Of a stretch of DNA of 37,152 nucleotides, positions 8,996 to 34,084 are shown one piece after another. The DNA comes from Candidatus Woesearchaeota archaeon (GTDB lineage Archaea > Nanobdellota > Nanobdellia > SCGC-AAA011-G17 > JAFCDX01). The translations under genes were made by a program, and so were the position numbers. Under the pieces are notes generated by a model. It searched no databases. It had not been told where the DNA came from and saw nothing but the letters and a program-made list of their open reading frames with translations. The stretch lies in contig JAGVZV010000009.1 of the NCBI GenBank assembly GCA_018302265.1, forward strand, positions 1-37,152. Reading direction: 5' to 3'. Positions within the stretch are counted from its first letter, which is position 1; every line of letters starts with the position of its first letter.

Positions 8996-9002
8996 TAATT
9001 TT

Positions 9003-12258: not shown

Positions 12259-12356
12259 TGGGCCCGAGGAGATTCGAACTCCTGATCTTCGCTACGTCCT
12301 CGCCTGAATTTGTTTGCATCCAAAAAGCGACGTCTTAGCCACTGGACTACGAGCCC
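12259..12356 (-). tRNA. tRNA with anticodon UUG (Gln by anticodon; G1-C72 and A73), canonical 25-nt intron at 12295-12319
   Basis: Reverse complement reads GGGCTCG-TA-GTCC...TCGCT-TTTTGG[intron]T-AGCGA-AGATC-AGGAG-TTCGAAT-CTCCT-CGGGCCC-A. A bulge-helix-bulge can be drawn with bulges GGA and CGT around a 4-bp helix UUUU/AGGA. Confidence 0.75.
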
Positions 12357-17651: not shown

Positions 17652-17665
17652 TTTTATGACCCCTT

Positions 17666-18394
17666 TTAACTCAATCCTACAGATTCCAAAACAAATTTTA
17701 TTTCCATTTGCCGTAATGTGCACGGATTTTTTATTGATGATACATCAAACTTTATTAAGTTATCGCTTTTAGAACCTAATAATTTTGTTTCAACATTGCA
17801 AGCATCCACTGTCTTGCCATTGTTTATGCAAGTCAGATATTTTTTTGCCAGTATTACTGTATCAGTGTAATCTTTTATGTTTGACGCTATTTTTTTGTTT
17901 AAATCAACTTTAAAATCATATTTTACACTGATTATTGATTTATCATCTATAGTTTCAATCAAAATCGGGTCTGAAACAAGGAAAAATCCATCATCTGACA
18001 ACTTGAAGGTGTACTTAAGGTTCTTCAATCTTGTATTGTAACTTATATACCTTCTAAAATTTTCATCAAAATACTTGTTAAATGAATTTACCATATTGTT
18101 GTCTGGATTGCAATTATCCGGATTAAAACTCCAAAGGGGATAATTTCCCTTTAAACAGCCAACTCCTTTATTAGAAAGATCTTCCATGGAATCGCAAAAT
18201 GCCAGTCTTGCAGAATCCTCTACAAAGAAATAATCCTTTTCATTTTCAATCAGAGTATTTATTATAAATCCTGCTCTTTCTCCTACCAATTCATCTCTCT
18301 CCTTTATTTTATTCTTATAAAATGTATATCCTAATATGCCCACTATTAAAATTGTGAAAATTGCTATCATTGGCAAAAATTGTCCTTTTTTCAT
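17666..18394 (-). CDS. pilin-like protein (class III signal peptide)
   Basis: MKKGQ-FLPMIAIFTILIVGILGY from the ATG at 18394, which lies 1 nt after the upstream stop codon. Confidence 0.65.
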   Translation of the reverse strand: MKKGQFLPMIAIFTILIVGILGYTFYKNKIKERDELVGERAGFIINTLIENEKDYFFVEDSARLAFCDSMEDLSNKGVGCLKGNYPLWSFNPDNCNPDNNMVNSFNKYFDENFRRYISYNTRLKNLKYTFKLSDDGFFLVSDPILIETIDDKSIISVKYDFKVDLNKKIASNIKDYTDTVILAKKYLTCINNGKTVDACNVETKLLGSKSDNLIKFDVSSIKNPCTLRQMEIKFVLESVGLS

Positions 18395-18395
18395 T

Positions 18396-18944: not shown

Positions 18945-19422
18945 TTAATGTTGGAAGTATTACTGTTTGCTCTTGATTTATTATTGAATACTCAAATATG
19001 ACAGGTTTATCAATTAGCAGCAAATAATCTGAAGAAGAATAACAACTTAATTTTTCATTTTGTATTTTTGCACTGCACAATGGAAAATCTGAAATAAATT
19101 TATCTTTATTTATATATTTATCATTGAGTGCCTTTCCATTTAGATCTCTAAGAGTGACATTTATTTCAAGATTTCCAAAATCAAAACAATTTTCCAGCTT
19201 ATCCAGTTCAGATGTGTCTATAATTCCAAAGTGATCATTATAAGCAAGACAATTATATATATTATACATGATTAGTTGAGATTCGAATTTCTTTACATCT
19301 ATTTTTCTTGATAATACCATAGAAATACCGCCAACAATAACTAAGAGAATTATTATTAGAATACCTATTCTTAAGAACCACAAAGGCATATCCATTGCAA
19401 TATTAAATTGTCCCTTTTTCAT
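18898..19422 (-). CDS. pilin-like protein (class III signal peptide)
   Basis: MKKGQ-FNIAMDMPLWFLRIGILIIILLVIVGG. Confidence 0.6.
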   Translation of the reverse strand: MKKGQFNIAMDMPLWFLRIGILIIILLVIVGGISMVLSRKIDVKKFESQLIMYNIYNCLAYNDHFGIIDTSELDKLENCFDFGNLEINVTLRDLNGKALNDKYINKDKFISDFPLCSAKIQNEKLSCYSSSDYLLLIDKPVIFEYSIINQEQTVILPTLSGGSMGGGGAEDRTK

Positions 19423-19816
19423 TGGATATTTTTATAATATTCCCCTCCTTTTTGAAATTTATAAATAAACTTTTTATATCGTTGTTTTTAAAATCTAAAT
19501 CGCTAAAACAATACAATGAATAAGGATTTAATTTTTCATCCTGTTCATTTGCACTGATAATACATGGTTTATTATTAAATGATATTGAATAACCCTCTTT
19601 TGCAAATGATGTTTTTACATTCAAATCAATTGGAGATGCAGATATAGAATCTATTAGAAAGGCAGAATCTATTGCAAGCCTTTGCATTTCGTATCTAGCA
19701 TCTTCTCTTACTTGGACAATGAAGCTAATTACTATTGCTCCTACTACAGCAGCGAGTACTATATAGAATAAGAACAGATACTCTTTTTCCTGGCCCCTTT
19801 TATCCATACTAATCAA
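19403..19816 (-). CDS. pilin-like protein (class III signal peptide)
   Basis: MDKRGQ-EKEYLFLFYIVLAAVVGAIVISFIV. Confidence 0.6.
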   Translation of the reverse strand: MISMDKRGQEKEYLFLFYIVLAAVVGAIVISFIVQVREDARYEMQRLAIDSAFLIDSISASPIDLNVKTSFAKEGYSISFNNKPCIISANEQDEKLNPYSLYCFSDLDFKNNDIKSLFINFKKEGNIIKISNEKGTI

Positions 19817-19844
19817 AAATTAATTGAATTTATATTAGTTTTGA

Positions 19845-20945
19845 TTATGCAATTAATGTGCAATCATATCCATATTTATACATGTCCCCACAACCACCAA
19901 TTGTCGCAACAACCGTTGGATGAATTGGAAGGTCAATCTTAGCCCAATCAAAATTTGGAGATGGATCCCATTTTCCTATATCTGTAATTTGGTAATGTCC
20001 TTTGATATGCTCATCATCTAACTTTAGATTAGGATATCTTGGTACTATCTCTTGGATTAATTGTCTGATAGCATCATATTGTGCAGACGTATAAAGATCA
20101 TTTGCATTACCTGTATTTACTATTTCAATACCAATAGATCTAGTATTATAATTTTTGGCGTGCCAGGCTATTTTATTTTCGGGGGTTAGATAATAAATTG
20201 TTCCATCCTTATCTACAATATAATGTACAGAAAGTCCTCTCTGAATAAATGTATCATAAGCGCCTTTGAATGTAGATGACCCAGTATGATGTAACACTAT
20301 CAAATCAATTTGATCTCTCCCCCTGCAACCACCTGTTTTTAATGTGTCATAATAATTTAAATTTAAATTTATTGCTCTTTGCTCGAGTTGGAAACAGTCG
20401 AATGATTGTTTATCAATTACATCGGCTTCATTTGTATCAAATAACTGTCCAAGTGGAGTTTTTGATATAGTTAATTTATTTTTTTCTTTTTCATAATAGA
20501 TTATAAAAAAATCTTCTTCTGATTCCACATACTTTTTATCAAAACCTATTAAAGAGATTGAAGTAAAACTTAATTCTTTGCAATAATAGTTCTTTGTGCA
20601 GCTATTTTTTGCCTCGTCATACTCGCAGATGCATAACTCATTTTTATTAATCATATCTGATAATGGAGGGGCTATCCCAGGGAGATTATTTGCATTTTTA
20701 TCAAGTATAGCAAAAATGCAATTTCCCTTTCCAAACTTAATTGGAGTCTCAGATTGGACATTATCACCCAACACATTCAGTTCACTTACCATAATATCAA
20801 TAGAACTCTTGGATGCATCATCAATACATGCGGCACTTTTACCAAAGAACAAACTTGCAATTGCTTTTAATGGGAATAATAAAACCACTAAAAAAACTAG
20901 TCCGATCATAAGACCTATTAAAAAATTTTTAGTTCCCTCTTCCAT
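19845..20945 (-). CDS. membrane-anchored N-acetylmuramoyl-L-alanine amidase (Amidase_2 / AmpD-PGRP-T7 lysozyme fold) domain protein
   Basis: N-terminal TM segment FLIGLMIGLVFLVVLLF. C-terminal domain motifs are IDLIVLHHTG, SVHYIVDKDGTIY, AWHAKNYNTRSIGIEIVN and IKGHYQITDIGKWDPSPNFDW. The His317 to Asp327 spacing of 10 residues matches the AmpD zinc ligands as I recall them. Confidence 0.75.
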   Translation of the reverse strand: MEEGTKNFLIGLMIGLVFLVVLLFPLKAIASLFFGKSAACIDDASKSSIDIMVSELNVLGDNVQSETPIKFGKGNCIFAILDKNANNLPGIAPPLSDMINKNELCICEYDEAKNSCTKNYYCKELSFTSISLIGFDKKYVESEEDFFIIYYEKEKNKLTISKTPLGQLFDTNEADVIDKQSFDCFQLEQRAINLNLNYYDTLKTGGCRGRDQIDLIVLHHTGSSTFKGAYDTFIQRGLSVHYIVDKDGTIYYLTPENKIAWHAKNYNTRSIGIEIVNTGNANDLYTSAQYDAIRQLIQEIVPRYPNLKLDDEHIKGHYQITDIGKWDPSPNFDWAKIDLPIHPTVVATIGGCGDMYKYGYDCTLIA

Positions 20946-20946
20946 T

Positions 20947-21099
20947 TTATCCTGTCAAAGATTTGATAATGCTATCAAACTTACCAGCTATTGTGCTTGC
21001 GCCGCCAGTGAATATTAATACTAAGATAACAAGAACAATTATTGCTATTATAGTTAGTATAATTGTATTTAAAGCAAGCTCAGAACCTTTTCTATTCAT
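20947..21099 (-). CDS. minimal pilin-like protein (50 aa)
   Basis: MNRKGS-ELALNTIILTIIAIIVLVILVLIFTGG. Paralogous to the N-terminus of the upstream 120-aa pilin. ATGA overlap at 21096-21099. The longer track start (21144) is rejected. Confidence 0.6.
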   Translation of the reverse strand: MNRKGSELALNTIILTIIAIIVLVILVLIFTGGASTIAGKFDSIIKSLTG

Positions 21100-21458
21100 T
21101 TTGAACACTGGATTACACTGCACTCTATACCTATACTGCTGCAAGTCAGTCCTTTTTCGTTTTCATCATATATACCATTAGCATTTATATCAGCTTGGAA
21201 TTCAGAAAAGCAGAAATTCTGCATAAACTGATCCCTTAGTAAGGCACTATTTGATGTCTGGTAACTAGTACAGAAGGAATTACATCTAGCATTTGCTTCT
21301 TGGAGATCTGTTAATTGAGCGCCAAAAAAGGATTGGATTTTATTGGTAAGTGAAGCCATTCCACCTGTGAAAAATAAAGCAATGATAACCAAGACAATAA
21401 CAACAAGGATTGTAATAACTATTGTGTTCATAGAAAGTGATTGTCCTCTTTTATTCAT
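21096..21458 (-). CDS. pilin-like protein (class III signal peptide), Cys-rich C-terminus
   Basis: MNKRGQ-SLSMNTIVITILVVIVLVIIALFFTGG. Confidence 0.65.
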   Translation of the reverse strand: MNKRGQSLSMNTIVITILVVIVLVIIALFFTGGMASLTNKIQSFFGAQLTDLQEANARCNSFCTSYQTSNSALLRDQFMQNFCFSEFQADINANGIYDENEKGLTCSSIGIECSVIQCSK

Positions 21459-21486
21459 TTTAACACCTTGTTAATTATTTACTAAA

Positions 21487-22191
21487 TTAACTATTTAAAG
21501 GTTTTGGTGAACATTTGTTTAGAGAGTTTATAAAAGCCTTTCCCTCTTCTGATAGTTCATCCTTAAGTATGAAACAAATATTGTTACCCTTCTTGTAAAC
21601 CATTTTATTTCGGTCTAAAAAATCTAGGCTTACTCTTTCTGGTACAGGCTCTATTATATTTGAGATGCCCGAACCAACTTTAACTTCAGTAGCTCCAGTC
21701 TCATAAGAGAGTTTTATCGGGGATTCTGATAGAATTATATCTATTCCTTGTTTATTTGGACCGGTTATAATCTGATCTAATCCAGTTGTATAAATATTAC
21801 CGCTATCGTAAGTTACATAACAAAATATATTTTTCCCAGTCAAAGATTCTCTATTTTTGGGTATATTTGTTTCTTCTTTGGATATTACCATAGTATTCGG
21901 AGTTATAAAAGAGAGTACATACCCTGGAGAAAATGTCAGAATTTGTAGACTGCATATACACCCATCGTCATTGGAATCAAAACAATCTTTATACTGAGAA
22001 ATAATATCTTGAAATTCTCCTGAGATGTCTTTTACACTGTCTGTAGTTTGTCCTCCAAAGATACCATCTATGATATTATCTATATATTTTTGTACTCCTT
22101 CTGAAACATATCCTGCCTTCATTAAAAAAAGTACTAAAACTATTGCAACTATGACGATAATAATAATTTCTGGAACCTTTGATGTTGTCAT
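21487..22191 (-). CDS. pilin-like or N-terminally anchored secreted protein
   Basis: MTTSKVPE-IIIIVIVAIVLVLFLMKAG followed by a soluble Cys-containing domain. Confidence 0.5.
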   Translation of the reverse strand: MTTSKVPEIIIIVIVAIVLVLFLMKAGYVSEGVQKYIDNIIDGIFGGQTTDSVKDISGEFQDIISQYKDCFDSNDDGCICSLQILTFSPGYVLSFITPNTMVISKEETNIPKNRESLTGKNIFCYVTYDSGNIYTTGLDQIITGPNKQGIDIILSESPIKLSYETGATEVKVGSGISNIIEPVPERVSLDFLDRNKMVYKKGNNICFILKDELSEEGKAFINSLNKCSPKPLNS

Positions 22192-22198
22192 TTAATTT

Positions 22199-22354
22199 TT
22201 ACCCTCCGAATCTTAATAAACTAGCAAATTTTTCTAATATAGACATAATCTTTTCTTTTGCAAAATAAATTATTGTTAAAATAAATACTAAAACAAGCAA
22301 GGCTATGAACAGCTTCATTAGTGTTTCCCATGCAAAATCCCCTTTTTTGTTCAT
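22199..22354 (-). CDS. small pilin-like protein (51 aa); not in the supplied ORF track
   Basis: Hand translation gives MNKKGDFAWETLMKLFIALLVLVFILTIIYFAKEKIMSILEKFASLLRFGG. ATGA overlap with the stop of the upstream 280-aa gene (22351-22354). Ends in TAA at 22199-22201. Confidence 0.55.
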   Translation of the reverse strand: MNKKGDFAWETLMKLFIALLVLVFILTIIYFAKEKIMSILEKFASLLRFGG

Positions 22355-23193
22355 TTTGATTGACACCTTTTGATTATTCCATCTGAATTAGTAACTAATA
22401 ATTGTGCAGTAAAGTCTGTAGATGGATTGTATGCTGCTTCTCCTATTAAAAGAAATCCAGCTCCTGCTGCGCCAACCTTACAAAAAAGAGGGGCGAATGG
22501 AGCAGTTATTCCTCCCATCAAGGCTAATCCTCCAGAAACAATGCACCCAGCTAAAGGCGCGCCAATTGCTATTCCTACTTCTTGGAGTTTAGTAGATCCT
22601 AAAAAATCAAATCTACTCCCGCGATTTATTAAATATACTACATAAATGGGGTTGCTTAGATCAAGTTTATTATATTCATTCAGATTAGTTTTATCGAACG
22701 TTTTTGGGTATAAAAATTCAGCATAAGTCATCCCAGAACCAAGGGGTTTTTCTTTTAACAAATAGTCTCCTAATCCAGTTATTTCCATATCTTTTAGCGA
22801 GGGATCTGTTCCAATAATCTTGCTACATAAAAAGCAATAAGTTTCTCCAGAGAAATCCCTATGAAATAAAAAATCTATTTCTCCCTTTCCAAATTGGTCC
22901 CAACAATCATACATATCATTAGCTATTAATTTTTTTACATTTTCCAAATCCTTTTTACTTTTTATAAATTTATAATCAGTGCTACATCTCAAAGGAATAT
23001 CAACAAACTCTGTTTCAGGGGTTATACTCAATTTAGTAGTCGCTTTTAATTGAACACTCTGCTTACAAACTTCTTTACTTGTAACATCTTTGGTTATATC
23101 TGACCAGGTTTTAAGGCCGTACATCATTACAATTAATCCTGCAAGTGTAACAATCAATACAACCAGTACAGCTGTTGTCATTGCCTTTTTCAT
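22351..23193 (-). CDS. N-terminally anchored protein with a Gly/Ala-rich hydrophobic C-terminus, unknown function
   Basis: MKKA-MTTAVLVVLIVTLAGLIVMMYGL, a Cys-containing middle part, and a C-terminal GIAIGAPLAGCIVSGGLALMGGITAPFAPLFCKVGAAGAGFLLIGEAA. Confidence 0.55.
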   Translation of the reverse strand: MKKAMTTAVLVVLIVTLAGLIVMMYGLKTWSDITKDVTSKEVCKQSVQLKATTKLSITPETEFVDIPLRCSTDYKFIKSKKDLENVKKLIANDMYDCWDQFGKGEIDFLFHRDFSGETYCFLCSKIIGTDPSLKDMEITGLGDYLLKEKPLGSGMTYAEFLYPKTFDKTNLNEYNKLDLSNPIYVVYLINRGSRFDFLGSTKLQEVGIAIGAPLAGCIVSGGLALMGGITAPFAPLFCKVGAAGAGFLLIGEAAYNPSTDFTAQLLVTNSDGIIKRCQSK

Positions 23194-23340: not shown

Positions 23341-25242
23341 TTATAGTGTTGCGGGTATTGATTTTAAAACAGTCGAGGCTAGCAAGCTGAACAATATTAT
23401 AACAATGAATGAAACCAAGGTGTATAGTATGGCTCCACGAATCATATTCTTACCAAGCAAGTAATCCTGATTCAACCTGTCAGAACCGTTCTCTATTCCA
23501 TTTGCTAGTATTGTAAGTATGAATATAATTTCTATAACATATATTCCTACAACCAACTGAAAATAATACGGGGAAATGATCTCGCTGACATTGAATATCT
23601 GAACAAACTGCTGCACATTGTTAAATCCGGTTGCATCATTGGTTGCATTTGCTCCATAATTAGAAAAAATATCTCCCATATTTACAATAACTCCAACTAT
23701 CATTGAACCAATACCAACAACAATTCCTGCAATAACAGGAGCCATGAAGGATATCTGGGATTTCATTGAAGAAACTATTTCTGATAGCAGGTCTTTTAGT
23801 CTTTCATTAACCCTGTGTATCTCAGAAACATAAGTAGAAATGCTAATCATGGCTTGAGCAGCTATTTTTGATCCCTTTTGCACACTTTCTATCAAGACCT
23901 CCATGGAGGATTGTATGAGCGAGGAAGGATAAGACAAAATTGCTCCGGTTTTTTGATTAAATATTGCTTCCTTGATTCCCATTCCAAGATTTCTTATATT
24001 AACAGACACTATTCTAAAAAAATTTCCTGTTGGTGTTCCAGACATATTTTCTGCTACAGTTCCAAATGCTATTTCAGCAGGAACTCCGTCAGATAATCGG
24101 TTTCCTAATTGGAATAAGGAAGAGGCAAATTCATTCTCTAATTTTTTTGTTTCTTCCCTTACCTTGATCAGACCCTTACTCATCTTTCTGTAATAAATAC
24201 CAATGCCAAGCGCGATTCCAAGCGGGACTAGGAGACTTATTACAAGAGACCCAAGACCAAAAGGACCGCACTCACCCCCGCATTTATAATCCAAAAAATT
24301 ACCAAACAACCCCCCAAAGGGCATATCAAAGTTAGGATTTATGACATGCAATATAATCGGAGACAATCCTACAAATACAAACAAGAGTATAATAAAGAAT
24401 GGAAATGTAAGTGATGCATGCTCTTTCAGCAATTGTTTTTGTATATCTGTTTCTCCGTATCCTGTCGGTCTCTTGCTTAAAATTTCATAACCATATGTAA
24501 AAACAACAATGGGCAGGATGATATCATACAAGAACGCAAGATGATACCATTTTATCAGCTTTCCCATGAACGAGGCAATCAATGGAAAAATAACTAACCC
24601 CAGTATTGGAAGTATAACCCCCAGCATGTGCAGCATTGTGATTGGATTCTTCAGGTCTTGTGCATAGTGCAGCATTTTTTCATAAGTTCCCTCCAGTATC
24701 ACTTCCAGCGCTTTGTCAAGTAATTGCAATCTTCTGGCTTCTGATGCCTCAAATAAAGAAGATCCAACCAGATGAAAAGAATTAACAAATTCCAGATTAT
24801 AATCTCTCCATGTTTCTAAATAAGCATCAAGTGCGTCCTTAATGTTTGAATATCTTCCGGATTCAATATCCCAGAATATCTTTCTCAGGTCAAGTGATAA
24901 TGGGGAGCCAATATGCAGTGCAGAAAATTTTATTGCGTGCTCTAAATTCGATGTGTGCCTCATGTACATGACTATATACAGCATGCACAAGACCATCTGG
25001 TTGCTTGCCCTTAATCTCCATAAATTAGACAGATATATTGGCAAATTTGATAATGGTTTTAATATAACTGCTGCAAGTATTACAAGTATTAATGGAAAGA
25101 AAACAGACACTTCAGAGAATATGTAAGTTACTGCTAGAATAACAAGCGCCGATAATATAACAAACACAGATGCAAGCGTTGCAAGACTTGTTGCTCCTGT
25201 TGGAGTCATTTGCAAATGCGCTGTCTCTATTGCCTTCTGCAA
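23341..25242 (-). CDS. type IV pilus/archaellum platform protein (GspF/PilC/TadC/FlaJ-like, two T2SSF-like repeats); true start unclear
   Basis: Polytopic protein with two helical cytoplasmic repeats, each followed by TM segments. Sits immediately downstream of the ATPase. The frame stays open for 75 further codons, up to the ATPase stop codon. Confidence 0.75.
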   Translation of the reverse strand: MQKAIETAHLQMTPTGATSLATLASVFVILSALVILAVTYIFSEVSVFFPLILVILAAVILKPLSNLPIYLSNLWRLRASNQMVLCMLYIVMYMRHTSNLEHAIKFSALHIGSPLSLDLRKIFWDIESGRYSNIKDALDAYLETWRDYNLEFVNSFHLVGSSLFEASEARRLQLLDKALEVILEGTYEKMLHYAQDLKNPITMLHMLGVILPILGLVIFPLIASFMGKLIKWYHLAFLYDIILPIVVFTYGYEILSKRPTGYGETDIQKQLLKEHASLTFPFFIILLFVFVGLSPIILHVINPNFDMPFGGLFGNFLDYKCGGECGPFGLGSLVISLLVPLGIALGIGIYYRKMSKGLIKVREETKKLENEFASSLFQLGNRLSDGVPAEIAFGTVAENMSGTPTGNFFRIVSVNIRNLGMGIKEAIFNQKTGAILSYPSSLIQSSMEVLIESVQKGSKIAAQAMISISTYVSEIHRVNERLKDLLSEIVSSMKSQISFMAPVIAGIVVGIGSMIVGVIVNMGDIFSNYGANATNDATGFNNVQQFVQIFNVSEIISPYYFQLVVGIYVIEIIFILTILANGIENGSDRLNQDYLLGKNMIRGAILYTLVSFIVIILFSLLASTVLKSIPATL

Positions 25243-25467: not shown

Positions 25468-28400
25468 CTAACTCACCTCTTTACCGAATGTTCTTCTCTT
25501 GACCTCTTTTTTTAGTTCTTCTTCCCAGCCAAAAAATATTTTTTTACTGTCTAAAAATCCGTATTTTTGAAGAATCTCATCAGATATTTTGTGGAATAGA
25601 TCATTGAAGTAGATAACATTTACTGCTTCTAACAGATCAGGCATATCTAATTTTTTTGCATAATCAACTATTGTTTCTTTAATCTTTGCCCTTAGCAAAA
25701 TATTCTCCCAGACCGCGCCCCAATTACCAGCCCATTCTTTTATATTGGATGCTATTGATTTTACTATTTCTGATTCTCCGTTAATCAAAGCGTCTGTTGG
25801 CTGCAATGAATCAGTTTTTGCATCATATTTCATCAGATCAACAAATCCGTTTTCTGCCAGCGGATCATTCTCCCAGTTTTTCCTTACTTCAGTTATCTGC
25901 GTAACTCTTCTCCATCTGTGCAATCCATCAGGAGATTTTATTGGATTTGCAATTACAATAATATCAACTGCCTTGAAGCTTGTTCTTGGAACTTTTAAAT
26001 CATTAACAATTCTATCAAAAACACCATAAGGGCTATCGCCATGAATTGTTCCAGCAACAACATTTGCAAGAGCACCAACGCGCATTGCCTCGAATAATGC
26101 CAAGGCTTCTAAACTTCTAATTTCTCCAACAATCAGGGAGGAATCTCCTAATCTCAAGCTTGTTCTTATGCCCTCATCAGCAGCAAGTTCAGCACCAGCT
26201 CCTGCCAGAGCAGCACGAACCTTAAGTGGCTGTATATTATACCCCATTTCTCTTAATTTTTCTGTGCTTAATTCCATAGTATTATGCGCTATTATATTTC
26301 CTGTTAAGAAACTCTCACATTCTGGAACTGAAATGTCATAAACATAATCATTAAAATTTTCTATCTTTTCAATATCTCTTACTTCGTCCCAGAATATGTC
26401 TGAATTAGCGAGTATCTTAAGATTTTCAAGCAGGGGGTGTTCTATACAATTTTGTTGCAACATTTTGGAAAATTTAGATCTTCCAATATTACAATTACCA
26501 TGGATATAACTTCTATAATTAAAATCCTTAATCATTTTTTTCATATCTTTTCTATTTTCTAAACTTAAGGGGATTATATCTGTAGAATCATGGGTAGATG
26601 TCTTATTTGCCAGGTTATCTAAACTTTTGTTTTTATAACCTTGCAAGAATCCTATTTCTTTGAATAATTTAATAAATTTGTTAGAACTGATTGAAGAATT
26701 ATGGGTTTTATCCTTTCTAAAGTGAGTTATTCTGCTAATTATTCCGAATCTTAATAATAGTGTTTGAACGTCTTTTAGCATATTTAAAGAAGACAGTGCC
26801 AGCATTATTTCGGATTTTGATACGTGGCCATCTCCACTAAATAAACCCTTTAAAATATATTTTATTTGATCATTAGTTAAAGAAAAAACCCAGTTAGGAA
26901 TTCTTTTTGTATAAGCATCCCCTTTTAATTCTAAAACTTCTCTTAAGACATGTTTAAAGGTAACAGAATTTATCATTAAAGAAAATTTATCTGAATGCAT
27001 TTTAACTGGAAAATCTATATGATTTGCCAAGTTATAAATAATTTTTCTTTCTTCTTCAGTCACGGAAGAGAATATTATAGATTTTGAATCGTAACAACCA
27101 TCTGCTAACCACAACCCTATAAGGGTAAGCAAATCTTCAGTTATATCCATTTTTATAGGAATGCCCCTGGAATTACCCCTTATTTTTATGTATGCATCAG
27201 TTATTCCATTAATATTATACCCTAATGCTTTAAGGTCTTTTAATATTTTTATTGGAATAATTCCCTTTCTAAACCATCTAGATATTAAAGAGCGGTTATG
27301 TTTGTACTCTTTCCCTAGTTGTTTAATTTCATGATGGTAATTTTTTATAATTTCTTTAATATTTCCTCCATATACATAAGCTATTTCAAATTTATCTAGA
27401 TAATTTAATAAATTTATTTCTTTTAATTCCTTCCCTATAATGGGCAAAGATCTGGGTGTTGCTATAAAAGTACCTTTTTTAATTTCATTCACTTTAATTT
27501 CTGAAATTTTTGCTTCTGGGTTCAATCCAAGCAAAGAATGGTCCCCTGTTACTTTTATTTCCCTTCCAGTTCTTGTAATTATTTTATAGACTGGTTTGTT
27601 GACTTTGTGCCTGATAAATTTAGATATTTTCGCCGGCATTATTTTTCCTTCTTTGTTCATGGATAAAATTGCTATATCATTTTCATTACCCAAAATTTCG
27701 TGTCCGCTAAGATTGTACCAACAACCATTTTTTTCAATCAGAGAATCTATTAAATTTCCTATTGTATCTCTTTCCCATAAATTATTTTTTTTGACTATAA
27801 CTTCTGAATCTCCAGTAACACTATCTTCAACAGTAATTACCCTATACTTTCTCATTATTTCAAGCAGGCACGAATCAAGCAGCGACGTCTTTCCAGACCC
27901 ACGAGTTCCAGCTATCAGTAACGTCCTTGCACCATCTATTATGAAACTGAGCAATCCTGCACCAAGTGGAGATATCATTTTATTGTCCATAAACAATGGA
28001 AGTGTCCATGGCTTATCACGATGTCTTCTTAAAGCAAATCCCAATCCATACGGATTTAATGGCTTGGAAATAATTGCAATTCTTGCCCTTGAATTTGGAA
28101 GGATTAATTCTGTATCCAGAACAGGATTTGCCTCATCCAGGGGTCTTCCACTCAATAATCTAAATTTGGTTGCCCAGGATTCTCCATCATCAACGCTCGG
28201 GAAAATGTTAGTAACACACTCCTCGTAATCAGAATGCACCAAGAATATTGGATTCTGTCCTATGGGTCCGTTTATTGAAATATCCTGCACTTTAGGGTCA
28301 TTTAATAACGTTTCAATCAAACCAAAACCAACAGTGTAACGCACCAGAATTTCTGCTAACTCCTCAATCTCTTTGTAGGATATTTCTATATTCTGATGCG

Positions 28401-29316
28401 AGGCTAATTCAGTGATTAAATCACGACCTATGTTAAAAAATGTTTTCCTCATTCTTTCCGGGTCAACAAATTCCTCTGCTTTTGGCTTGTGCTCTGATAA
28501 CACATTTCTAGCAAGATTCAGCAGCATGTATTTATCCTCAGAAATCTTAAACTCAGGAGGATTCAGATGATACAAATATTTTATATCCTTTGGAACCCTG
28601 AATATTGTAACATCTGTTCTTTTATCAATAGAATAAGCATCAATCTCTTCTCCATGCATTGGAGGCTCGGCCATTAATCTGGTGTACATAAAATCAGGGG
28701 TTATTATTGGTCTTAACACTTGTCTGTAAATGGACCTATCACCAAGAGTATAACCTGCTGTATGTGGCATTGCAAGAGCCATTAATTTTGTCTGGTCTAG
28801 ATATACAAGAACTGTCCTTAATAAGTTGATATAATAATCCCTGCATCTTAAACATAATGGAGTTGTTGTCTTCCTTGTAAGAATTGTTTCTTCTCTGACT
28901 AATCTTTTCAATTCGACATAAGCACCAACCGGATCTGTCCTCAACAAATTCAAGATTATATGCTGAATCTGCGCTAATCTCCCCGGAAGACAAACCTGGC
29001 ACTCAAGAGTTGGAGCCATTGCCCCAAGTGTCAGAATCTTTTTTTGCTTTATGAAATGATTGTATATGTTTGCTATTTCTACAAGAACAGATGTCTGGGT
29101 AAAATCATACTCATAATTTTTTCCCATCTGTGAAAAAACAATCCTGGAAACTCCGGAACTCTGGGCTAAGAAATCAATGGTCTTAGACATGCACATGCTG
29201 CTATCTTCTATAGAGGGAGAATAGGGATAATTATTATAATTAACCCACATCACCTCTTCATTACCCTGCTTAACTATTTCATAGTCTCCGGGTTTTGTTT
29301 TCTTAGTGAATAGCAT
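25468..29316 (-). CDS. type II/IV secretion-family ATPase (FlaI/PilB/VirB11-KlbA-like), intein-containing precursor
   Basis: Walker A LIAGTRGSGKTS. Asp-box RVITVED|...|TMEL split by the intein. Walker B LRLGDSSLIVGEIRS. His-box VAGTIHG. N-terminal CxxC...CxxC (ECQVCLPG...LCLRCRD). 768 aa once the intein is removed. Confidence 0.88.
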   Translation of the reverse strand: MLFTKKTKPGDYEIVKQGNEEVMWVNYNNYPYSPSIEDSSMCMSKTIDFLAQSSGVSRIVFSQMGKNYEYDFTQTSVLVEIANIYNHFIKQKKILTLGAMAPTLECQVCLPGRLAQIQHIILNLLRTDPVGAYVELKRLVREETILTRKTTTPLCLRCRDYYINLLRTVLVYLDQTKLMALAMPHTAGYTLGDRSIYRQVLRPIITPDFMYTRLMAEPPMHGEEIDAYSIDKRTDVTIFRVPKDIKYLYHLNPPEFKISEDKYMLLNLARNVLSEHKPKAEEFVDPERMRKTFFNIGRDLITELASHQNIEISYKEIEELAEILVRYTVGFGLIETLLNDPKVQDISINGPIGQNPIFLVHSDYEECVTNIFPSVDDGESWATKFRLLSGRPLDEANPVLDTELILPNSRARIAIISKPLNPYGLGFALRRHRDKPWTLPLFMDNKMISPLGAGLLSFIIDGARTLLIAGTRGSGKTSLLDSCLLEIMRKYRVITVEDSVTGDSEVIVKKNNLWERDTIGNLIDSLIEKNGCWYNLSGHEILGNENDIAILSMNKEGKIMPAKISKFIRHKVNKPVYKIITRTGREIKVTGDHSLLGLNPEAKISEIKVNEIKKGTFIATPRSLPIIGKELKEINLLNYLDKFEIAYVYGGNIKEIIKNYHHEIKQLGKEYKHNRSLISRWFRKGIIPIKILKDLKALGYNINGITDAYIKIRGNSRGIPIKMDITEDLLTLIGLWLADGCYDSKSIIFSSVTEEERKIIYNLANHIDFPVKMHSDKFSLMINSVTFKHVLREVLELKGDAYTKRIPNWVFSLTNDQIKYILKGLFSGDGHVSKSEIMLALSSLNMLKDVQTLLLRFGIISRITHFRKDKTHNSSISSNKFIKLFKEIGFLQGYKNKSLDNLANKTSTHDSTDIIPLSLENRKDMKKMIKDFNYRSYIHGNCNIGRSKFSKMLQQNCIEHPLLENLKILANSDIFWDEVRDIEKIENFNDYVYDISVPECESFLTGNIIAHNTMELSTEKLREMGYNIQPLKVRAALAGAGAELAADEGIRTSLRLGDSSLIVGEIRSLEALALFEAMRVGALANVVAGTIHGDSPYGVFDRIVNDLKVPRTSFKAVDIIVIANPIKSPDGLHRWRRVTQITEVRKNWENDPLAENGFVDLMKYDAKTDSLQPTDALINGESEIVKSIASNIKEWAGNWGAVWENILLRAKIKETIVDYAKKLDMPDLLEAVNVIYFNDLFHKISDEILQKYGFLDSKKIFFGWEEELKKEVKRRTFGKEVS
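26281..27822 (-). mobile_element. 514-aa intein with a LAGLIDADG homing endonuclease domain (ATPase residues 499-1012)
   Basis: N-terminal block SVTGDSEVIV (Ser1). Block B KVTGDHSLL (TxxH). LAGLIDADG motifs LIGLWLADGCYD and ILKGLFSGDGHVS. C-terminal block VYDISVPECESFLTGNIIAHN followed by Thr+1. The exteins rejoin to the conserved VED-TMEL. Confidence 0.88.
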
Positions 29317-29398: not shown

Positions 29399-29755
29399 AT
29401 GGTACAAGAAGCTGAGACAAGTAATATTCTAGTTGACCTTAACACGCGAATTAGAGTTCTGGAAGAGAAGAACAGCCAGTTAAGGGAAAATTTACTGATT
29501 ATTAATCAAAACATGATTGAGGAATACAAGAGACTGATACAAGAGATAAAAACAATCAATTCTGATCTAAAAGAGACCAGAGAGGATATGCAAAATCTCA
29601 GGGAAATCGCCAAGCATGTAATAAAAGAGAGCGCGGGTTTTGCAAAAAAAGACTCTGTACTGGTTTTAGAAAAGTATATTAATCTCTGGGACCCCATGAA
29701 ATTTACAACAGAAGAGGATGTCCTAAAGATAATGGAACATCAAAAAAGAGCGTGA
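29399..29755 (+). CDS. coiled-coil protein, unknown function (FlaC-like?)
   Basis: 118 aa with heptad-rich sequence (RIRVLEEKNSQLRENLLIINQNMIEEYKRLIQEIK). Ends in LEKYINLWDPMKF. Confidence 0.6.
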   Translation: MVQEAETSNILVDLNTRIRVLEEKNSQLRENLLIINQNMIEEYKRLIQEIKTINSDLKETREDMQNLREIAKHVIKESAGFAKKDSVLVLEKYINLWDPMKFTTEEDVLKIMEHQKRA

Positions 29756-29760
29756 GATAA

Positions 29761-30297
29761 ATGGCTGAAGAAGAGTATAATGAAATAAAAGAGCAAGTTG
29801 GAGAGGAAGTAGAAGCTCCGGCACCAACACAGAATATACCAAGCGGGATGAGGCCATCTCTTATTTCTAAAAGAGCGCAAGCTGCTCCGATTGCTGAGGC
29901 TGGTTTTGAGGCTCCTCAGTTTGAAATGCCCCAGCCAATCACGCCAACGCCAGCAATATCAGGAAGGGCTGATATGGAAACAATAGAGCAGATAGCTGAA
30001 TCAATTGTCAATGAGAAGTGGGAAGACTTAATGTCAAGCGTAGGCAATATTGCCATATGGAAGGAAAAGGTACAGACTGATATTCGCGCAATAAAACAGG
30101 AAATTATGAGGATGGAAGAGAGATTTGAAAATCTGCAAAAAGCTATTCTTGGAAGAGTTGAGGAATATAATAAAACAATATCAACAGTCGGAAGCGAAAT
30201 GAAGGCCCTTGAGAGTGTTTTAGAAAGGATACTGCATCCGCTTGCAACAAATATCAAAGAATTATCAAGAATAACTGAGGATTTAAAGAAAAGATAA
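29761..30297 (+). CDS. coiled-coil protein with an acidic/Pro-rich N-terminus, unknown function
   Basis: 178 aa. C-terminal heptad region AIKQEIMRMEERFENLQKAILGRVEEYNKTISTVGSEMKALESVLERIL. Confidence 0.6.
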   Translation: MAEEEYNEIKEQVGEEVEAPAPTQNIPSGMRPSLISKRAQAAPIAEAGFEAPQFEMPQPITPTPAISGRADMETIEQIAESIVNEKWEDLMSSVGNIAIWKEKVQTDIRAIKQEIMRMEERFENLQKAILGRVEEYNKTISTVGSEMKALESVLERILHPLATNIKELSRITEDLKKR

Positions 30298-30816
30298 TTA
30301 TTTCTCCATTCTTGGAGCAATGAATCTTACTGAGAGTGAAGCTATTATAAGAATAAATATGGCTCCGAGAACTCTTGGGTGGAATAATGTTCTTAGTGTT
30401 TCACTTCCAATTGTTTTTGTTACATTAGATCCTGCGTAAGGAGTGAATATCTCCCCATAAACCTGTGTTATTCCTATAATCAATAATAAAAATGCAATAA
30501 CCATGACTGTCCATATGCTAAGATTGTTCCAGACAACTTGCTTTTCTATCCCCAAAAAAGTCAGCCCCATAAATAGTAATATTAAGAATACAAAAATAAA
30601 AACAAACCATGGAACGATGTAATTAATCAGGTCCACTACTCCTCCGGCAAATAAAGATACCAGTGCAATGGATAGTGCCACAATAAATTTTAATGTTTTG
30701 TTAGTACCCATCCAATCAGTATTATCCAGAATTATATATACCAAAGAAAAAATAAATAAGAATGTAACGAGTGGTAAAAAATGATACAATAATCCGGTAT
30801 CTAATAGTGTTGCCAT
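30298..30816 (-). CDS. polytopic membrane protein, paralog 3 of a tandem triplet
   Basis: 172 aa. The ATG lies immediately after the upstream stop with no gap. Topology matches the two upstream genes. Confidence 0.6.
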   Translation of the reverse strand: MATLLDTGLLYHFLPLVTFLFIFSLVYIILDNTDWMGTNKTLKFIVALSIALVSLFAGGVVDLINYIVPWFVFIFVFLILLFMGLTFLGIEKQVVWNNLSIWTVMVIAFLLLIIGITQVYGEIFTPYAGSNVTKTIGSETLRTLFHPRVLGAIFILIIASLSVRFIAPRMEK

Positions 30817-31362
30817 TTATTGACCAAATAATCTTGTGTACATATCCCTCGGTGTTTGTTGTTGTCCACTACCACCAATATATGCAACTACTACAACAAC
30901 TGTTGCAATAAGTATAATCCACGCCCTATCTCTTGAATCAGGCCTTAACCAGTAAGGAAGATTTAAACTAGTACCGCCAGATAAAGCCCATATAATAGCT
31001 ATTATACATATCACAAGTGCAATTGGTAAAGCCATTCCCTTCCATCCTTCTGTCTTAGCTCCAAACATTCCAGCAATAACTAAAAACATTAAAGACACTA
31101 GAATAAACAAAGAAACCTTTGGTAGGAATGAATTTATTATATAAGTTATCTCGGGCTGTGATACAACTAACAATCCCAATATTAAAGAAATAACTAAATT
31201 AATATTTGTTTTTGGCTTCTCTGTTCCGTGTTCTTTTCCAAATATCATTAATTTTTCAAGTATTGCAAATATTATTGTGAATATCAGCAAGAAGGGAAGA
31301 AGATAATCATAAACTCCCATTGCCTGTAATTCAGCCATTAATGAATAAAAATCTGTTGCCAT
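30817..31362 (-). CDS. polytopic membrane protein, paralog 2
   Basis: Shares YLLPFLLIFTIIFAILEKLMIFGKE...EKPKTNIN with paralog 1. Confidence 0.65.
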   Translation of the reverse strand: MATDFYSLMAELQAMGVYDYLLPFLLIFTIIFAILEKLMIFGKEHGTEKPKTNINLVISLILGLLVVSQPEITYIINSFLPKVSLFILVSLMFLVIAGMFGAKTEGWKGMALPIALVICIIAIIWALSGGTSLNLPYWLRPDSRDRAWIILIATVVVVVAYIGGSGQQQTPRDMYTRLFGQ

Positions 31363-31923
31363 TTACTTATCACCATCCCCTTTCTTATTCCAGGTTATAA
31401 AAAAGATTGCACCAATAATAACTGCCAGCAATATCACACTGGAAACAATAGAACCGCCCCAACTATCCATCACATATTCATAAGCATATTCCAACCATGA
31501 TTGTCCAGAATCTAGTTTTATTGCATACAAGAAGATTATGATAACACCAATTAACAAGAATGCAACAAATGCAGCATAATATCCCGGATGTCCTTCCTTG
31601 AAATTAAACTCTTTTGTTGTTGCAAATGTTCCAATCACCATCAAGAAACTTATACTGATAACTATCAATAAAACAATATTTGGAAGTGCCACCTGAAGCG
31701 CTGTAACAATCTTATTGCTTGCTACAACAAGAAGAGCAATAACAAATGACACCATCGAATTAAGATTTCTTTTTGGTTTTTCTCCTTCCTTCCCAAGTAT
31801 CATTGTCTTTTCTAGAATAGCAAAGACCATTGTGAATACCAGCAGGAATGGAAGCACTACATCAAACAAGCCAAATTTTTGAAAGAACTGTATTGCGTTT
31901 GCTAATGGACTTGGTTCTACCAT
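31363..31923 (-). CDS. polytopic membrane protein, paralog 1
   Basis: VVLPFLLVFTMVFAILEKTMILGKEGEKPKRNLN, 186 aa. Confidence 0.65.
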   Translation of the reverse strand: MVEPSPLANAIQFFQKFGLFDVVLPFLLVFTMVFAILEKTMILGKEGEKPKRNLNSMVSFVIALLVVASNKIVTALQVALPNIVLLIVISISFLMVIGTFATTKEFNFKEGHPGYYAAFVAFLLIGVIIIFLYAIKLDSGQSWLEYAYEYVMDSWGGSIVSSVILLAVIIGAIFFITWNKKGDGDK

Positions 31924-34048: not shown

Positions 34049-34084
34049 CAATAATTATTTAAATGCGTGTTCGTATAATTGAGG

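What the first reader, a model, noticed from the sequence alone, without database searches (positions are those of the whole stretch)
19845..20945. Murein amidase domain encoded in the middle of an archaeal pilin gene cluster
The 366-aa product has an N-terminal membrane anchor like its pilin-like neighbours. Its C-terminal domain (about nt 19938-20324) carries LIVLHHTG, AWHAKNYNTRSIGIEIVN and GHYQITDIGKWDPSPNFDW.

These match the Zn-amidase signature of the AmpD / T7-lysozyme / PGRP (Amidase_2) family: a first His, a Glu, then His-x9-Asp with a Lys two residues before the Asp.

The rest of the window is clearly archaeal, and archaea do not build murein, so the substrate must be foreign. The gene starts 1 nt after the stop of a 50-aa minimal pilin and is co-directional with the ATPase, platform and pilin genes.

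Working hypothesis: a pilus-associated or surface-anchored enzyme used to breach, anchor to or scavenge bacterial cell wall. That would imply an archaeon-bacterium contact system rather than the usual archaeon-archaeon DPANN association.
Basis: partly seen in the sequence, partly recalled or inferred. Interest (0 to 1): 0.82.

Follow-up and report, generated by a model that had tools for sequence, protein, structure and literature searches.

The report
Pilin-borne murein amidase in DPANN archaeon
A tiny wall-less archaeon (Woesearchaeota-type DPANN) encodes a working-type bacterial-cell-wall amidase fused to a pilin-like subunit inside a conserved pilus operon. Relatives swap in other wall-cutting enzymes at the same spot, which points to a surface apparatus aimed at bacteria.

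Summary
ORF 19845-20945 (-) encodes a 366-aa protein whose C-terminal domain is a bona fide Amidase_2 (Pfam E = 8e-32, AmpD-like predicted fold). The full catalytic set is present: H219, Y242, E274, H317, K325 and D327.

The window is archaeal (Woesearchaeota/Nanoarchaeia-type DPANN). There is no composition break, and the gene order recurs in at least seven independent assemblies.

New here:
- The N-terminal 175 aa form a Cys-rich, pilin-like "carrier" module with 187 database clusters. 131 of 152 examined members have a class III signal motif.
- Almost all recognisable C-terminal cargo on this module is a murein hydrolase: SLT, M23, Amidase_2, M15 or GH73.
- Close relatives carry different cargo at the identical operon position.
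- A second pilin-like gene of the same operon carries the amidase in other lineages. Giant surface proteins carry it in yet others.

Best reading: a modular minor pilin, or a bindosome-like subunit, that displays murein hydrolases against bacterial walls.

Not shown: pilin fold (no PDB match for the N-module), signal-peptide cleavage, filament incorporation, enzyme activity, or the biological role.

PG hydrolases in Woesearchaeota are already published. The pilus-borne, cargo-swapping form was not found in the literature searched.

The parts
19845..20945 (-). Gene for the 366-aa pilin-like murein amidase (stop codon at 19845-19847)
   Evidence: ORF. Pfam Amidase_2. AF2 model with mean pLDDT 88.
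20847..20945 (-). aa 1-33: class III-like signal (M-E-E-G|T-K) followed by the hydrophobic H-domain, predicted as one long helix
   Evidence: KD 3.17. Helix 2-33 in the model. Aligns with MKKG... of P0039 and P0002. Fits the published criteria of G/A/S at -1 and a charged residue at -2 (PMC4371748).
20466..20828 (-). aa 40-160: Cys-rich beta domain of the carrier (N-) module. C40, C76, C105, C107 and C116 are invariant in the 8-sequence alignment A2; C122 is conserved only among the closest relatives and shifted in the others
   Evidence: Alignment A2. hhalign against the distant modules gives 97.7 %. 187 database clusters. No PDB structural match.
20316..20465 (-). aa 161-210: linker (a helix, then a low-confidence stretch). 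This is the breakpoint where cargo differs between relatives
   Evidence: pLDDT below 50 at aa 170-180. Identity to L004 and L090 orthologues ends at about aa 175.
19956..20315 (-). aa 211-330: Amidase_2 catalytic domain with H219, Y242, E274, H317, K325 and D327
20947..21099 (-). 50-aa mini-pilin (MNRKGSELAL...), translationally coupled to the amidase gene
   Evidence: Orthologues in L001, L003, L004 and L090.
21096..21458 (-). 120-aa class III signal protein (MNKRGQSLSM...)
21487..22191 (-). 234-aa N-terminally anchored protein, conserved in the locus
22199..22354 (-). 51-aa mini-pilin (MNKKGDFAWE...)
22351..23193 (-). 280-aa N-terminally anchored protein, conserved in the locus
23341..25242 (-). 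633-aa polytopic (about 9 TM) membrane protein directly after the ATPase; candidate platform protein
   Evidence: Conserved at 42-85 % identity. TM count. No T2SSF, Pfam or PDB homology, so the role is inferred from position only.
25468..29316 (-). Secretion/pilus-assembly ATPase of the archaeal GspE/FlaI/CpaF type, interrupted by an intein with LAGLIDADG (about 26281-27819)
   Evidence: Orthologues without the intein.
19403..19807 (-). Class III signal protein (MDKRGQ...), 134 aa
18898..19422 (-). Class III signal protein (MKKGQ...), 174 aa
18396..18944 (-). Class III signal protein (..LNKKGQ...). The ORF as listed; the true start is probably internal
17666..18394 (-). 242-aa class III signal protein (MKKGQF...). 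This is the second carrier type: its homologues carry Amidase_2 (or M23) in other lineages
   Evidence: blastp. hhalign A4 vs A5 gives 99 %, E = 4.6e-18. L008 M23 protein.
29399..30297 (+). Two divergently transcribed cytoplasmic proteins (118 and 178 aa), conserved next to the ATPase in all related loci
30298..31923 (-). Three paralogous membrane proteins of about 180 aa, conserved upstream of the locus

Best explanation
The gene encodes a modular, pilin-like surface subunit of a conserved Woesearchaeal type IV pilus-like (Tad/Epd/bindosome-related) machine.

Its parts are:
- An N-terminal class III-type signal and hydrophobic helix, which target it to the membrane and to the assembly machinery.
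- A Cys-rich beta domain that acts as a carrier.
- A flexible linker.
- A zinc N-acetylmuramoyl-L-alanine amidase that is presented outside the cell.

The archaeon makes no murein, so the enzyme must act on bacterial peptidoglycan. Either it sits at the tip or base of a filament, or it belongs to a short membrane-anchored assembly. Its role would be to open the wall of a bacterial partner or prey at the contact site, or to strip peptides from murein for scavenging.

Shown: domain identity, intact catalytic residues, archaeal origin, operon membership, conservation, and cargo exchange.

Inferred: processing by a prepilin peptidase, incorporation into a filament, the substrate, and the biological role.
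For: 1. Amidase_2 identity with complete catalytic residues.
2. Same operon position in 7 independent assemblies (L001/L002, L003, L004, L089, L090 and the window), with 1:1 orthologues of all neighbouring genes.
3. Cargo swap between close relatives at a common breakpoint near aa 175. L001 (Amidase_2) and L090 (SLT) have neighbours 67-93 % identical and N-modules 71 % identical. The window (Amidase_2) pairs with L004 (M23). L003 and L089 carry SLT+Amidase_2..
4. The N-module family has 187 clusters. 131 of 152 members have K/R-K/R-G/A within the first 14 residues, and 60 are the module alone. Recognisable fused domains are almost only murein hydrolases: SLT 25, M23 8, Amidase_2 4 (+6 in the seed), M15/VanY about 5, glucosaminidase 1..
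5. A second pilin-like gene of the operon (17666-18394) is homologous to the N-module of another class of amidase fusions (hhalign 99 %).
6. Arrays of at least 4 class III ORFs flank the amidase in 8 of 20 archaeal loci, against 0-2 in 60 bacterial loci.
7. The ATPase is of the archaeal GspE/FlaI/CpaF type. A Peptidase_A24 prepilin peptidase lies 9 kb away in L006 and L007.
8. Precedents exist: bacterial modular pilins (PMC8179133) and the Sulfolobus bindosome (PMC3387779, PMC4371748).
Against: - The query has E-E-G rather than K/R-K/R-G before the H-domain. Cleavage is therefore uncertain, although Asp at -2 is used by H. volcanii PilA1-3.
- The N-module model has only moderate confidence when predicted alone (pLDDT 72.6). 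It has no significant structural match to any solved pilin or to any other PDB entry (best E = 0.048).
- The putative platform protein shows no T2SSF homology.
- No prepilin peptidase lies in the window.
- The same amidase clade also occurs on giant non-pilin surface proteins, so pilus display is not obligatory.
- There is no experimental or co-occurrence evidence for a bacterial partner.
Confidence: 0.58

Rival explanations
1. The protein is simply a membrane-anchored or secreted murein hydrolase that uses an ordinary signal-anchor. It is encoded in the pilus operon only for co-regulation, or by historical accident. It is not a subunit or a client of the pilus machinery.
For: The query lacks the canonical basic residues before Gly4. 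There is no pilin-like structural match. The same amidase clade works on giant Sec-type surface proteins outside pilus loci.
Against: 131 of 152 family members have the class III motif ahead of the H-domain. The carrier module also exists without cargo, as a conserved operon member. Cargo is exchanged while the position and the carrier stay fixed. A second pilin-like paralogue of the same operon is used as a carrier elsewhere. Translational coupling to a mini-pilin is conserved.
Confidence: 0.22
2. The hydrolase remodels the archaeon's own envelope so that the pilus machine can be inserted or the cell can divide. This would be analogous to the dedicated lytic transglycosylases/amidases of bacterial T4SS, flagella and T4P.
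For: Bacterial trans-envelope machines often encode their own PG hydrolase (established knowledge). The gene sits in the middle of the machine operon.
Against: No archaeon is known to make murein. Pseudomurein has different bonds (beta-1,3 N-acetyltalosaminuronic acid, L-amino acids only) that SLT, Amidase_2 and the D-Ala-specific M15/VanY enzymes are not known to cut (established knowledge). Five different murein-specific families alternate as cargo. The enzyme is tethered to an exported pilin-like carrier rather than being periplasmic.
Confidence: 0.05
3. The domain acts as a non-catalytic peptidoglycan-recognition (PGRP-like) adhesin that only binds bacterial walls.
For: The Amidase_2 fold is shared with non-catalytic PGRPs. 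Pilus tip modules are typically adhesins (PMC8179133).
Against: All Zn ligands and the catalytic residues (H219, E274, H317, K325, D327) are nearly invariant across 56 family members, whereas non-catalytic PGRPs lose a ligand. The alternative cargos (SLT, M23, M15) are enzymes too.
Confidence: 0.1
4. The gene is an assembly artefact, a bacterial or phage contaminant, or a very recent foreign insertion in the contig.
For: The domain family is overwhelmingly bacterial or phage. An integrase gene lies 13 kb away.
Against: GC and GC3 are indistinguishable from the neighbours. The same arrangement occurs in independent ENA, JGI and NCBI assemblies. The N-terminal half of the same ORF is a DPANN-specific module.
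Confidence: 0.01

Closest known systems
AmpD / AmiD / T7 lysozyme / PGRP zinc amidases (Pfam Amidase_2, PF01510)
   Same: Significant HMM hit, AmpD-like predicted fold, and conserved His/His/Asp zinc ligands with the Glu, Lys and Tyr residues.
   Different: The host is an archaeon without murein. The domain is C-terminal to a pilin-like carrier and is encoded inside a pilus operon. There is no PG_binding_1 domain, unlike the nearest bacterial (myxobacterial) relatives.
Modular type IV pilins of bacteria (e.g. Streptococcus sanguinis PilB/PilC; Raynaud et al. 2021, PMC8179133)
   Same: The architecture is class III signal, then pilin/carrier module, then linker, then a grafted functional module. 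The gene is encoded among minor pilins. Cargo diversity on a constant carrier follows the same evolutionary logic.
   Different: The setting is archaeal, so the bacterial IPR012902 N-methylation motif is absent. The cargo is a murein hydrolase. No SLT, lysozyme-like or Amidase_2 architecture appears in that paper's catalogue as held here. A pilin fold for the carrier is not demonstrated.
Sulfolobus bindosome (class III signal sugar-binding proteins assembled by the Bas ATPase/membrane protein and small pilin-like proteins)
   Same: Large functional proteins carry prepilin-type signals and are encoded or assembled with a T4P-like ATPase, a membrane protein and small pilin-like proteins (PMC3387779, PMC4371748).
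   Different: The cargo is a hydrolase directed at a foreign cell wall, not a solute-binding protein. The lineage is different (DPANN). No homology to the Bas proteins was tested.
Large lytic murein transglycosylases / PG hydrolases of Woesearchaeota and other archaea (Castelle 2015 as cited in Vigneron 2022, PMC9723730; Strock et al. 2025, PMC12352652)
   Same: Same phylum and same enzyme families. The same amidase clade sits on giant SLT/M23/Amidase_2 proteins in L014-L016. The published inference is also the same: attack on bacterial murein.
   Different: Those reports describe free or giant secreted enzymes and do not mention pili or pilins. Here the enzyme is fused to a pilin-like carrier in a conserved pilus operon, with interchangeable cargo.
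Machine-associated PG hydrolases of bacterial secretion/pilus systems (VirB1, FlgJ and the like)
   Same: A murein hydrolase is encoded within the operon of a trans-envelope filament machine.
   Different: Those enzymes cut the producer's own wall, and here the producer has none. They are also not pilin fusions.

Membership tests
Amidase_2 (PF01510) N-acetylmuramoyl-L-alanine amidases | Profile HMM match above the curated threshold | tested here: met
   110.7 bits against a cut-off of 26, E = 8.1e-32, aa 211-330, covering 129 of 131 model positions.
Amidase_2 (PF01510) N-acetylmuramoyl-L-alanine amidases | Zinc ligands His / His / Asp (or Cys), corresponding to AmpD H34, H154 and D164 | tested here: met
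   H219 lies in LHHT and aligns with the LHY-T His of AmpDh2. H317 aligns with AmpD H154 and D327 with AmpD D164. All three are at least 90 % conserved in 56 homologues (that alignment's numbering is offset by -1).
Amidase_2 (PF01510) N-acetylmuramoyl-L-alanine amidases | Catalytic Glu (AmpD E116), Lys (AmpD K162 / T7 K128) and Tyr (T7 Y46) | tested here: met
   E274 aligns with E116 and K325 with K162. Y242 is nearly invariant. The assignment of roles rests on literature knowledge of AmpD and T7 lysozyme.
Amidase_2 (PF01510) N-acetylmuramoyl-L-alanine amidases | Alpha/beta T7-lysozyme/PGRP fold | tested here: met
   AF2 pLDDT is 93-98 over most of the domain. Foldseek finds AmpD 2y2b (E = 6e-10, TMt 0.60), LysCS (TMt 0.72) and T7 lysozyme (rmsd 2.1 Å).
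Amidase_2 (PF01510) N-acetylmuramoyl-L-alanine amidases | Hydrolysis of the MurNAc-L-Ala amide bond | not testable with these tools
   Needs a biochemical assay.
Archaeal type IV pilin-like proteins (class III signal peptide substrates) | Processing site ahead of the H-domain, with G/A/S at -1 and a charged residue at -2 (PMC4371748) | tested here: met
   The query reads M-E-E-G|T-K-N-F, so G is at -1 and E (charged but acidic, hence atypical) is at -2. Orthologues have KKG. 131 of 152 family members have K/R-K/R-G/A.
Archaeal type IV pilin-like proteins (class III signal peptide substrates) | A single hydrophobic H-domain of about 20 aa immediately after the site, forming the N-terminal helix | tested here: met
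   KD 3.17 at aa 8-24. The model has a helix at aa 2-33.
Archaeal type IV pilin-like proteins (class III signal peptide substrates) | Encoded with a PilB/FlaI-type ATPase and a PilC/TadC/FlaJ-type membrane protein | tested here: inconclusive
   The ATPase criterion is met. The adjacent 9-TM protein is conserved but shows no detectable T2SSF homology.
Archaeal type IV pilin-like proteins (class III signal peptide substrates) | Prepilin peptidase (Peptidase_A24) present and able to cleave the precursor | tested here: inconclusive
   None lies in the 37-kb window. A Peptidase_A24 gene lies 9 kb from the locus in L006 and L007. Cleavage itself is not testable here.
Archaeal type IV pilin-like proteins (class III signal peptide substrates) | Globular domain with a pilin-like fold, and incorporation into a filament | tested here: inconclusive
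   The model shows a helix plus an 8-stranded beta domain, but Foldseek finds no significant PDB match (best E = 0.048). Incorporation is not testable here.
Modular type IV pilins (sensu Raynaud et al. 2021) | N-terminal pilin module, a short linker, and a functional module unrelated to T4P biology | tested here: met
   The domain layout comes from the model and the alignments. There is a common breakpoint near aa 175 with interchangeable cargo.
Modular type IV pilins (sensu Raynaud et al. 2021) | IPR012902 bacterial prepilin N-methylation motif | tested here: not met
   The Pfam and NCBIfam scans give no pilin or N-methylation hit. This is expected for archaea, so this protein is an analogue or an archaeal counterpart, not a member of the bacterial set.
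Autolysins / machine-insertion PG hydrolases acting on the producer's own wall | The producer synthesises murein | not tested
General knowledge says archaea lack murein. The window carries only archaeal markers.

The most novel reading that the evidence does not exclude
Woesearchaeales possess a dedicated type IV pilus whose minor, probably tip-located, pilins carry interchangeable murein-degrading enzymes: amidase, lytic transglycosylase, and M23/M15 endopeptidases. This 'enzymatic pilus' would be used to dock onto bacterial cells and drill through their walls. It would be the first defined molecular apparatus for archaeon-on-bacterium parasitism or predation, and the first pilus known to deliver cell-wall hydrolases to another organism.
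Probability: 0.35. Interest if true: 0.88.

Novelty: new variant of a known kind. Interest (0 to 1): 0.68.

Why it matters
All cultivated DPANN archaea live on other archaea. Whether the huge, uncultured Woesearchaeota radiation instead exploits bacteria is an open question, argued so far only from scattered 'murein hydrolase' annotations.

This locus turns that idea into a concrete, conserved and testable machine: a pilus-type operon with a carrier subunit family whose cargo is almost exclusively murein hydrolases. It supplies:
- proteins to express and assay;
- antigens for localisation in enrichments;
- a genomic marker for predicting which DPANN lineages target bacteria.

It also extends the 'modular pilin' principle to archaea and to enzymatic, wall-cutting cargo. 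The enzymes themselves are candidate antibacterial lysins from an unexplored source.

Tried and rejected
- The word-indexed homology search with the N-module alone found only the query's own cluster. With the type-b module alignment it found only 4 proteins. Neither was informative. The exhaustive HMMER search was needed instead.
- Foldseek of the N-module against the PDB gave no significant match, so no claim of a pilin fold is made.
- A profile of the 633-aa membrane protein against the PDB, and scans of it against Pfam, found nothing. 'Platform' therefore remains positional inference.
- NJ phylogeny of the amidase domain: a strict archaea|bacteria split was found in 0 of 50 bootstraps, and the core archaeal clade (17 loci plus the query) in only 33 of 100. 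A single acquisition, or a specific bacterial donor (Myxococcota, Sericytochromatia and Acidobacteriota are nearest), is therefore not claimed.
- Contamination or chimera was rejected on composition and synteny.
- An own-wall autolysin role was rejected on general grounds, but the genomes were not checked.
- Szabó et al. 2007 (the FlaFind rules) could not be read. The criteria were taken from the review PMC4371748 instead.
- My first family alignment (A1) accidentally dropped Met1, so its printed residue numbers are offset by -1. This was corrected.
Full report
**Observation.** The ORF at 19845-20945 on the minus strand exists and encodes 366 aa. Pfam Amidase_2 matches aa 211-330 at E = 8.1e-32, scoring 110.7 bits against a cut-off of 26. 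A sequence search of the PDB returns AmpD, AmpDh2/3, AmiD, clostridial endolysins and T7 lysozyme. In those alignments E274, H317, K325 and D327 fall on AmpD E116, H154, K162 and D164. H219 falls on the His of the LH(Y/H)T motif. A family alignment of 56 homologues shows these residues and Y242 to be at least 90 % conserved (numbering there is offset by -1 because I dropped Met1, corrected). An AlphaFold2 model built on that alignment has mean pLDDT 88, and 93-98 over most of the catalytic domain. Its best PDB neighbours are AmpD (E = 6e-10), AmpDh2, AmiD, phage amidase endolysins, T7 lysozyme and PGRPs. So the domain assignment and the active-site prediction are confirmed.

**Is the contig archaeal and intact?** The window encodes ribosomal proteins S3Ae and S13/S15 with the eukaryote/archaeon-type N-domain, an RPA-type SSB, a GAN/Cdc45-like DHH-CID protein, an intein-interrupted secretion ATPase, and four tRNAs, two of which are long enough to carry introns. 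GC is 0.30-0.35 across the locus. The amidase-coding part has GC 0.345 and GC3 0.21, like its neighbours. The same gene order is found on independent ENA, JGI and NCBI contigs. Contamination or a chimera is therefore excluded for practical purposes. The closest named genomes are Candidatus Nanoarchaeia / Woesearchaeota MAGs.

**The surroundings.** In transcription order on the minus strand the locus reads as follows:
- an ATPase of the archaeal GspE/FlaI/CpaF group;
- a conserved 9-TM membrane protein with no detectable T2SSF homology;
- ten small or medium proteins with an N-terminal hydrophobic helix.

Seven of those ten begin M-x(0-3)-[KR][KR]-G-[QSD]. That is the archaeal class III (prepilin) signal as defined in the literature: G/A/S at -1, a charged residue at -2, and the processing site ahead of the H-domain (PMC4371748). 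Two of them are 50-51-aa 'mini-pilins'. The amidase gene starts one base after the stop of one of these, and the same spacing is seen in L003 and L004. A blastp map shows 1:1 orthologues of every gene of this block in L001, L003 and L004, and partial conservation in L006 and L007. The block includes three upstream ~180-aa membrane proteins, two divergent cytoplasmic proteins and the downstream RPA-YdjM pair. A Peptidase_A24 prepilin peptidase lies about 9 kb away in L006 and L007. None is in this window.

**The N-terminal half is a carrier module.** Residues 1-175 of the amidase protein are homologous to the N-termini of P0039, P0002, P0003 and others. C40, C76, C105, C107 and C116 are invariant in the 8-sequence alignment A2; C122 is conserved only among the closest relatives and shifted in the others. 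A more distant 'CxCICx' group is homologous by profile-profile comparison (97.7 %, E = 2e-12). An exhaustive HMMER search of 1.84 billion representative proteins with this module alone found 187 clusters at E <= 1e-3, of which 91 are at <= 1e-10. Of the 152 members examined:
- 131 have K/R-K/R-G/A within the first 14 residues;
- 60 are 215 aa or shorter, that is, the module alone;
- 87 are 300 aa or longer.

Pfam annotation of 144 members gives SLT 25, Peptidase_M23 8, Amidase_2 4 (plus six in the seed), M15/VanY-type peptidases about 5, glucosaminidase 1 and DUF2272 1. Otherwise there are only a few beta-propeller repeats. Local HMM labelling gave SLT 20, Amidase_2 9, M23 7, SLT+Amidase_2 2 and SLT+M23 2. 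About 40 further members carry an unannotated ~170-aa middle domain, which also sits between the carrier and the amidase in P0040, P0060 and P0062. So the recognisable cargo of this carrier is almost exclusively murein hydrolases from five unrelated families.

**Cargo swapping at a fixed operon position.** L001 and L090 are close relatives: their neighbouring proteins are 67-93 % identical and RPA is 82 % identical. Their hydrolases are 71 % identical over aa 1-175 and then unrelated, Amidase_2 in L001 and SLT in L090. The window and L004 (platform 85 %, RPA 82 % identical) share the carrier at 46 % identity over aa 1-177. After that they carry Amidase_2 and M23 respectively. L003 and L089 carry SLT+Amidase_2 at the same position. 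The breakpoint coincides with the low-confidence linker of the model, aa 164-205.

**A second carrier and a third display mode.** The last pilin-like gene of the window (17666-18394) is homologous to the N-terminal module of another large class of ~340-380-aa amidase fusions (blastp 1e-9 to 1e-6; hhalign 99 %, E = 4.6e-18). It is weakly similar (E = 2e-4) to the N-terminus of a 1257-aa M23 protein at the end of the pilin array in L008. In a scan of one genome per GTDB species, the 20 best loci are all DPANN MAGs. Eight of them have arrays of 4-12 class III ORFs on the amidase strand, whereas all 60 bacterial loci have 0-2. Five other DPANN loci carry the same kind of amidase domain at the C-terminus of giant (861-2059 aa) signal-peptide proteins, together with SLT and/or M23. 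These are evidently the 'large lytic murein transglycosylases' already reported for Woesearchaeota (PMC9723730). In an NJ tree the pilin-fused and giant versions are intermixed within one archaeal clade. Support for that clade is weak (33 of 100), and three archaeal sequences fall outside it. I therefore do not claim a single acquisition or a particular donor.

**Mechanism proposed.**
- Shown: an intact-looking zinc murein amidase is the C-terminal cargo of a conserved, exported, pilin-like subunit of a Woesearchaeal T4P-type operon.
- Inferred, step 1: the precursor is inserted by its H-domain and, in most family members, cleaved by an A24 prepilin peptidase.
- Inferred, step 2: like bacterial modular minor pilins (PMC8179133) or Sulfolobus bindosome subunits (PMC3387779, PMC4371748), it is assembled by the ATPase/membrane-protein pair into a filament or a short surface assembly, with the enzyme facing outward.
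- Inferred, step 3: the enzyme cuts stem peptides from the glycan strands of bacterial peptidoglycan at the point of contact. It would act alongside the glycosidase and endopeptidase cargo of paralogous or giant proteins.

Five murein-specific enzyme families alternate on the carrier, including D-Ala-specific M15/VanY peptidases and GH23 transglycosylases. That makes bacterial murein, rather than any archaeal polymer, the likely substrate. Whether the purpose is attachment and penetration of a host or prey, killing of competitors, or scavenging cannot be decided from sequence.

**Weak points.**
- The query itself has E-E-G, not K-K-G, before the H-domain. It satisfies the letter of the published rule (a charged residue at -2; Haloferax PilA1-3 use Asp), but it is atypical within its own family.
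- The carrier's beta domain has no significant structural neighbour in the PDB.
- The 'platform' is identified only by position and topology.
- No peptidase gene lies in the window.
- Pilus display is not the only way these archaea deploy the domain.

**Comparison with what is known.** Archaeal PG hydrolases, their prominence in Nanoarchaeota, and the predatory or 'vampiristic' reading for Woesearchaeota are published (PMC12352652, PMC9723730). Neither paper mentions pili or pilins. The archaeal T4P census of Makarova et al. 2016 mentions neither DPANN/Woesearchaeota nor hydrolase-carrying pilins. The bacterial modular-pilin catalogue lists no SLT, lysozyme-like or Amidase_2 module. Full-text searches combining Woesearchaeota or DPANN with pili or pilin and peptidoglycan, amidase or murein found nothing relevant. 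I therefore rate this as a new variant of known kinds (a modular pilin or bindosome-type subunit, and a DPANN PG hydrolase), not as categorically new.

**Verdict.** The biological role remains inferred. Interest is 0.68.

Noticed in passing
window 25468-29316 (-), intein at about 26281-27819: The pilus ATPase gene is interrupted, right after the Walker A region, by an intein carrying a LAGLIDADG homing endonuclease. Orthologues in L001, L003, L006 and L007 (762-768 aa) lack it, while the closest relative L004 has it.
   Followed up: partly
window 15353-16216 (+): A free-standing 287-aa LAGLIDADG-domain ORF lies between a tRNA-Lys gene and the YdjM gene.
   Followed up: no
window 605-701 (+) and 12259-12356 (-): Two tRNA genes were detected by Rfam but missed by ARAGORN. 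At 97-98 nt they probably carry archaeal introns.
   Followed up: no
window 2972-9037 (-) and 9003-10835 (-): Two very large ORFs (2021 aa and 610 aa) have no Pfam or NCBIfam hit. They may be surface proteins of the kind that carry hydrolase domains in other Woesearchaeota.
   Followed up: partly
window 16671-17723 (-), and L001, L003-L008, L090: The pilus-like locus is always immediately followed by the RPA gene, and usually by YdjM, across all lineages sampled. The listed RPA ORF overlaps the last pilin gene by 58 nt. Its true start is probably residue 25, because orthologues align from there.
   Followed up: partly
L008 20641-20834 (runs off the locus end): A 702-aa gene with Sigma70 regions 1.2-4 lies on a contig of a Woesearchaeota MAG (GCA_019322375.1). 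That is unexpected for an archaeon and could be a binning chimera or a horizontal transfer.
   Followed up: no
L010, L011, L013, L020, L028: These GTDB-representative records are titled 'uncultured Methanosarcinales archaeon' (binchicken MAGs), but they carry the Woesearchaeal amidase. L010, L013 and L020 have class III ORF arrays, and L010 and L020 also have a Woesearchaeal-type RPA. The labels are probably wrong.
   Followed up: partly
window 34079-34912 (+), 36238-37140 (-), 32353-33039 (+): A tyrosine recombinase (Phage_integrase), a Fic-domain protein and a TraB/PrgY/GumN-family protein lie upstream of the locus. L090 also has an integrase, downstream of YdjM.
   Followed up: no
window 17666-22366 (class III signal genes): Five of the seven neighbouring class III signal proteins have Gln at +1 (KGQ/RGQ), like the EppA-specific substrates of Methanococcus. 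The amidase has EEG|T. This hints at two classes of signal, or two peptidases.
   Followed up: no
P0123, P0130, P0133; middle of P0040, P0060 and P0062: An unannotated ~170-aa domain follows the carrier module in about 40 family members, and sits between the carrier and Amidase_2 in the ~550-aa members. It has motifs such as FFD..L and YYKK...W. Its function is unknown.
   Followed up: partly
L015 6827-10471; L014 6731-10468: Single giant Woesearchaeal proteins combine SLT+M23+Amidase_2 (1214 aa) or SLT+Amidase_2 (1245 aa). That is a complete murein-dismantling kit on one polypeptide.
   Followed up: partly
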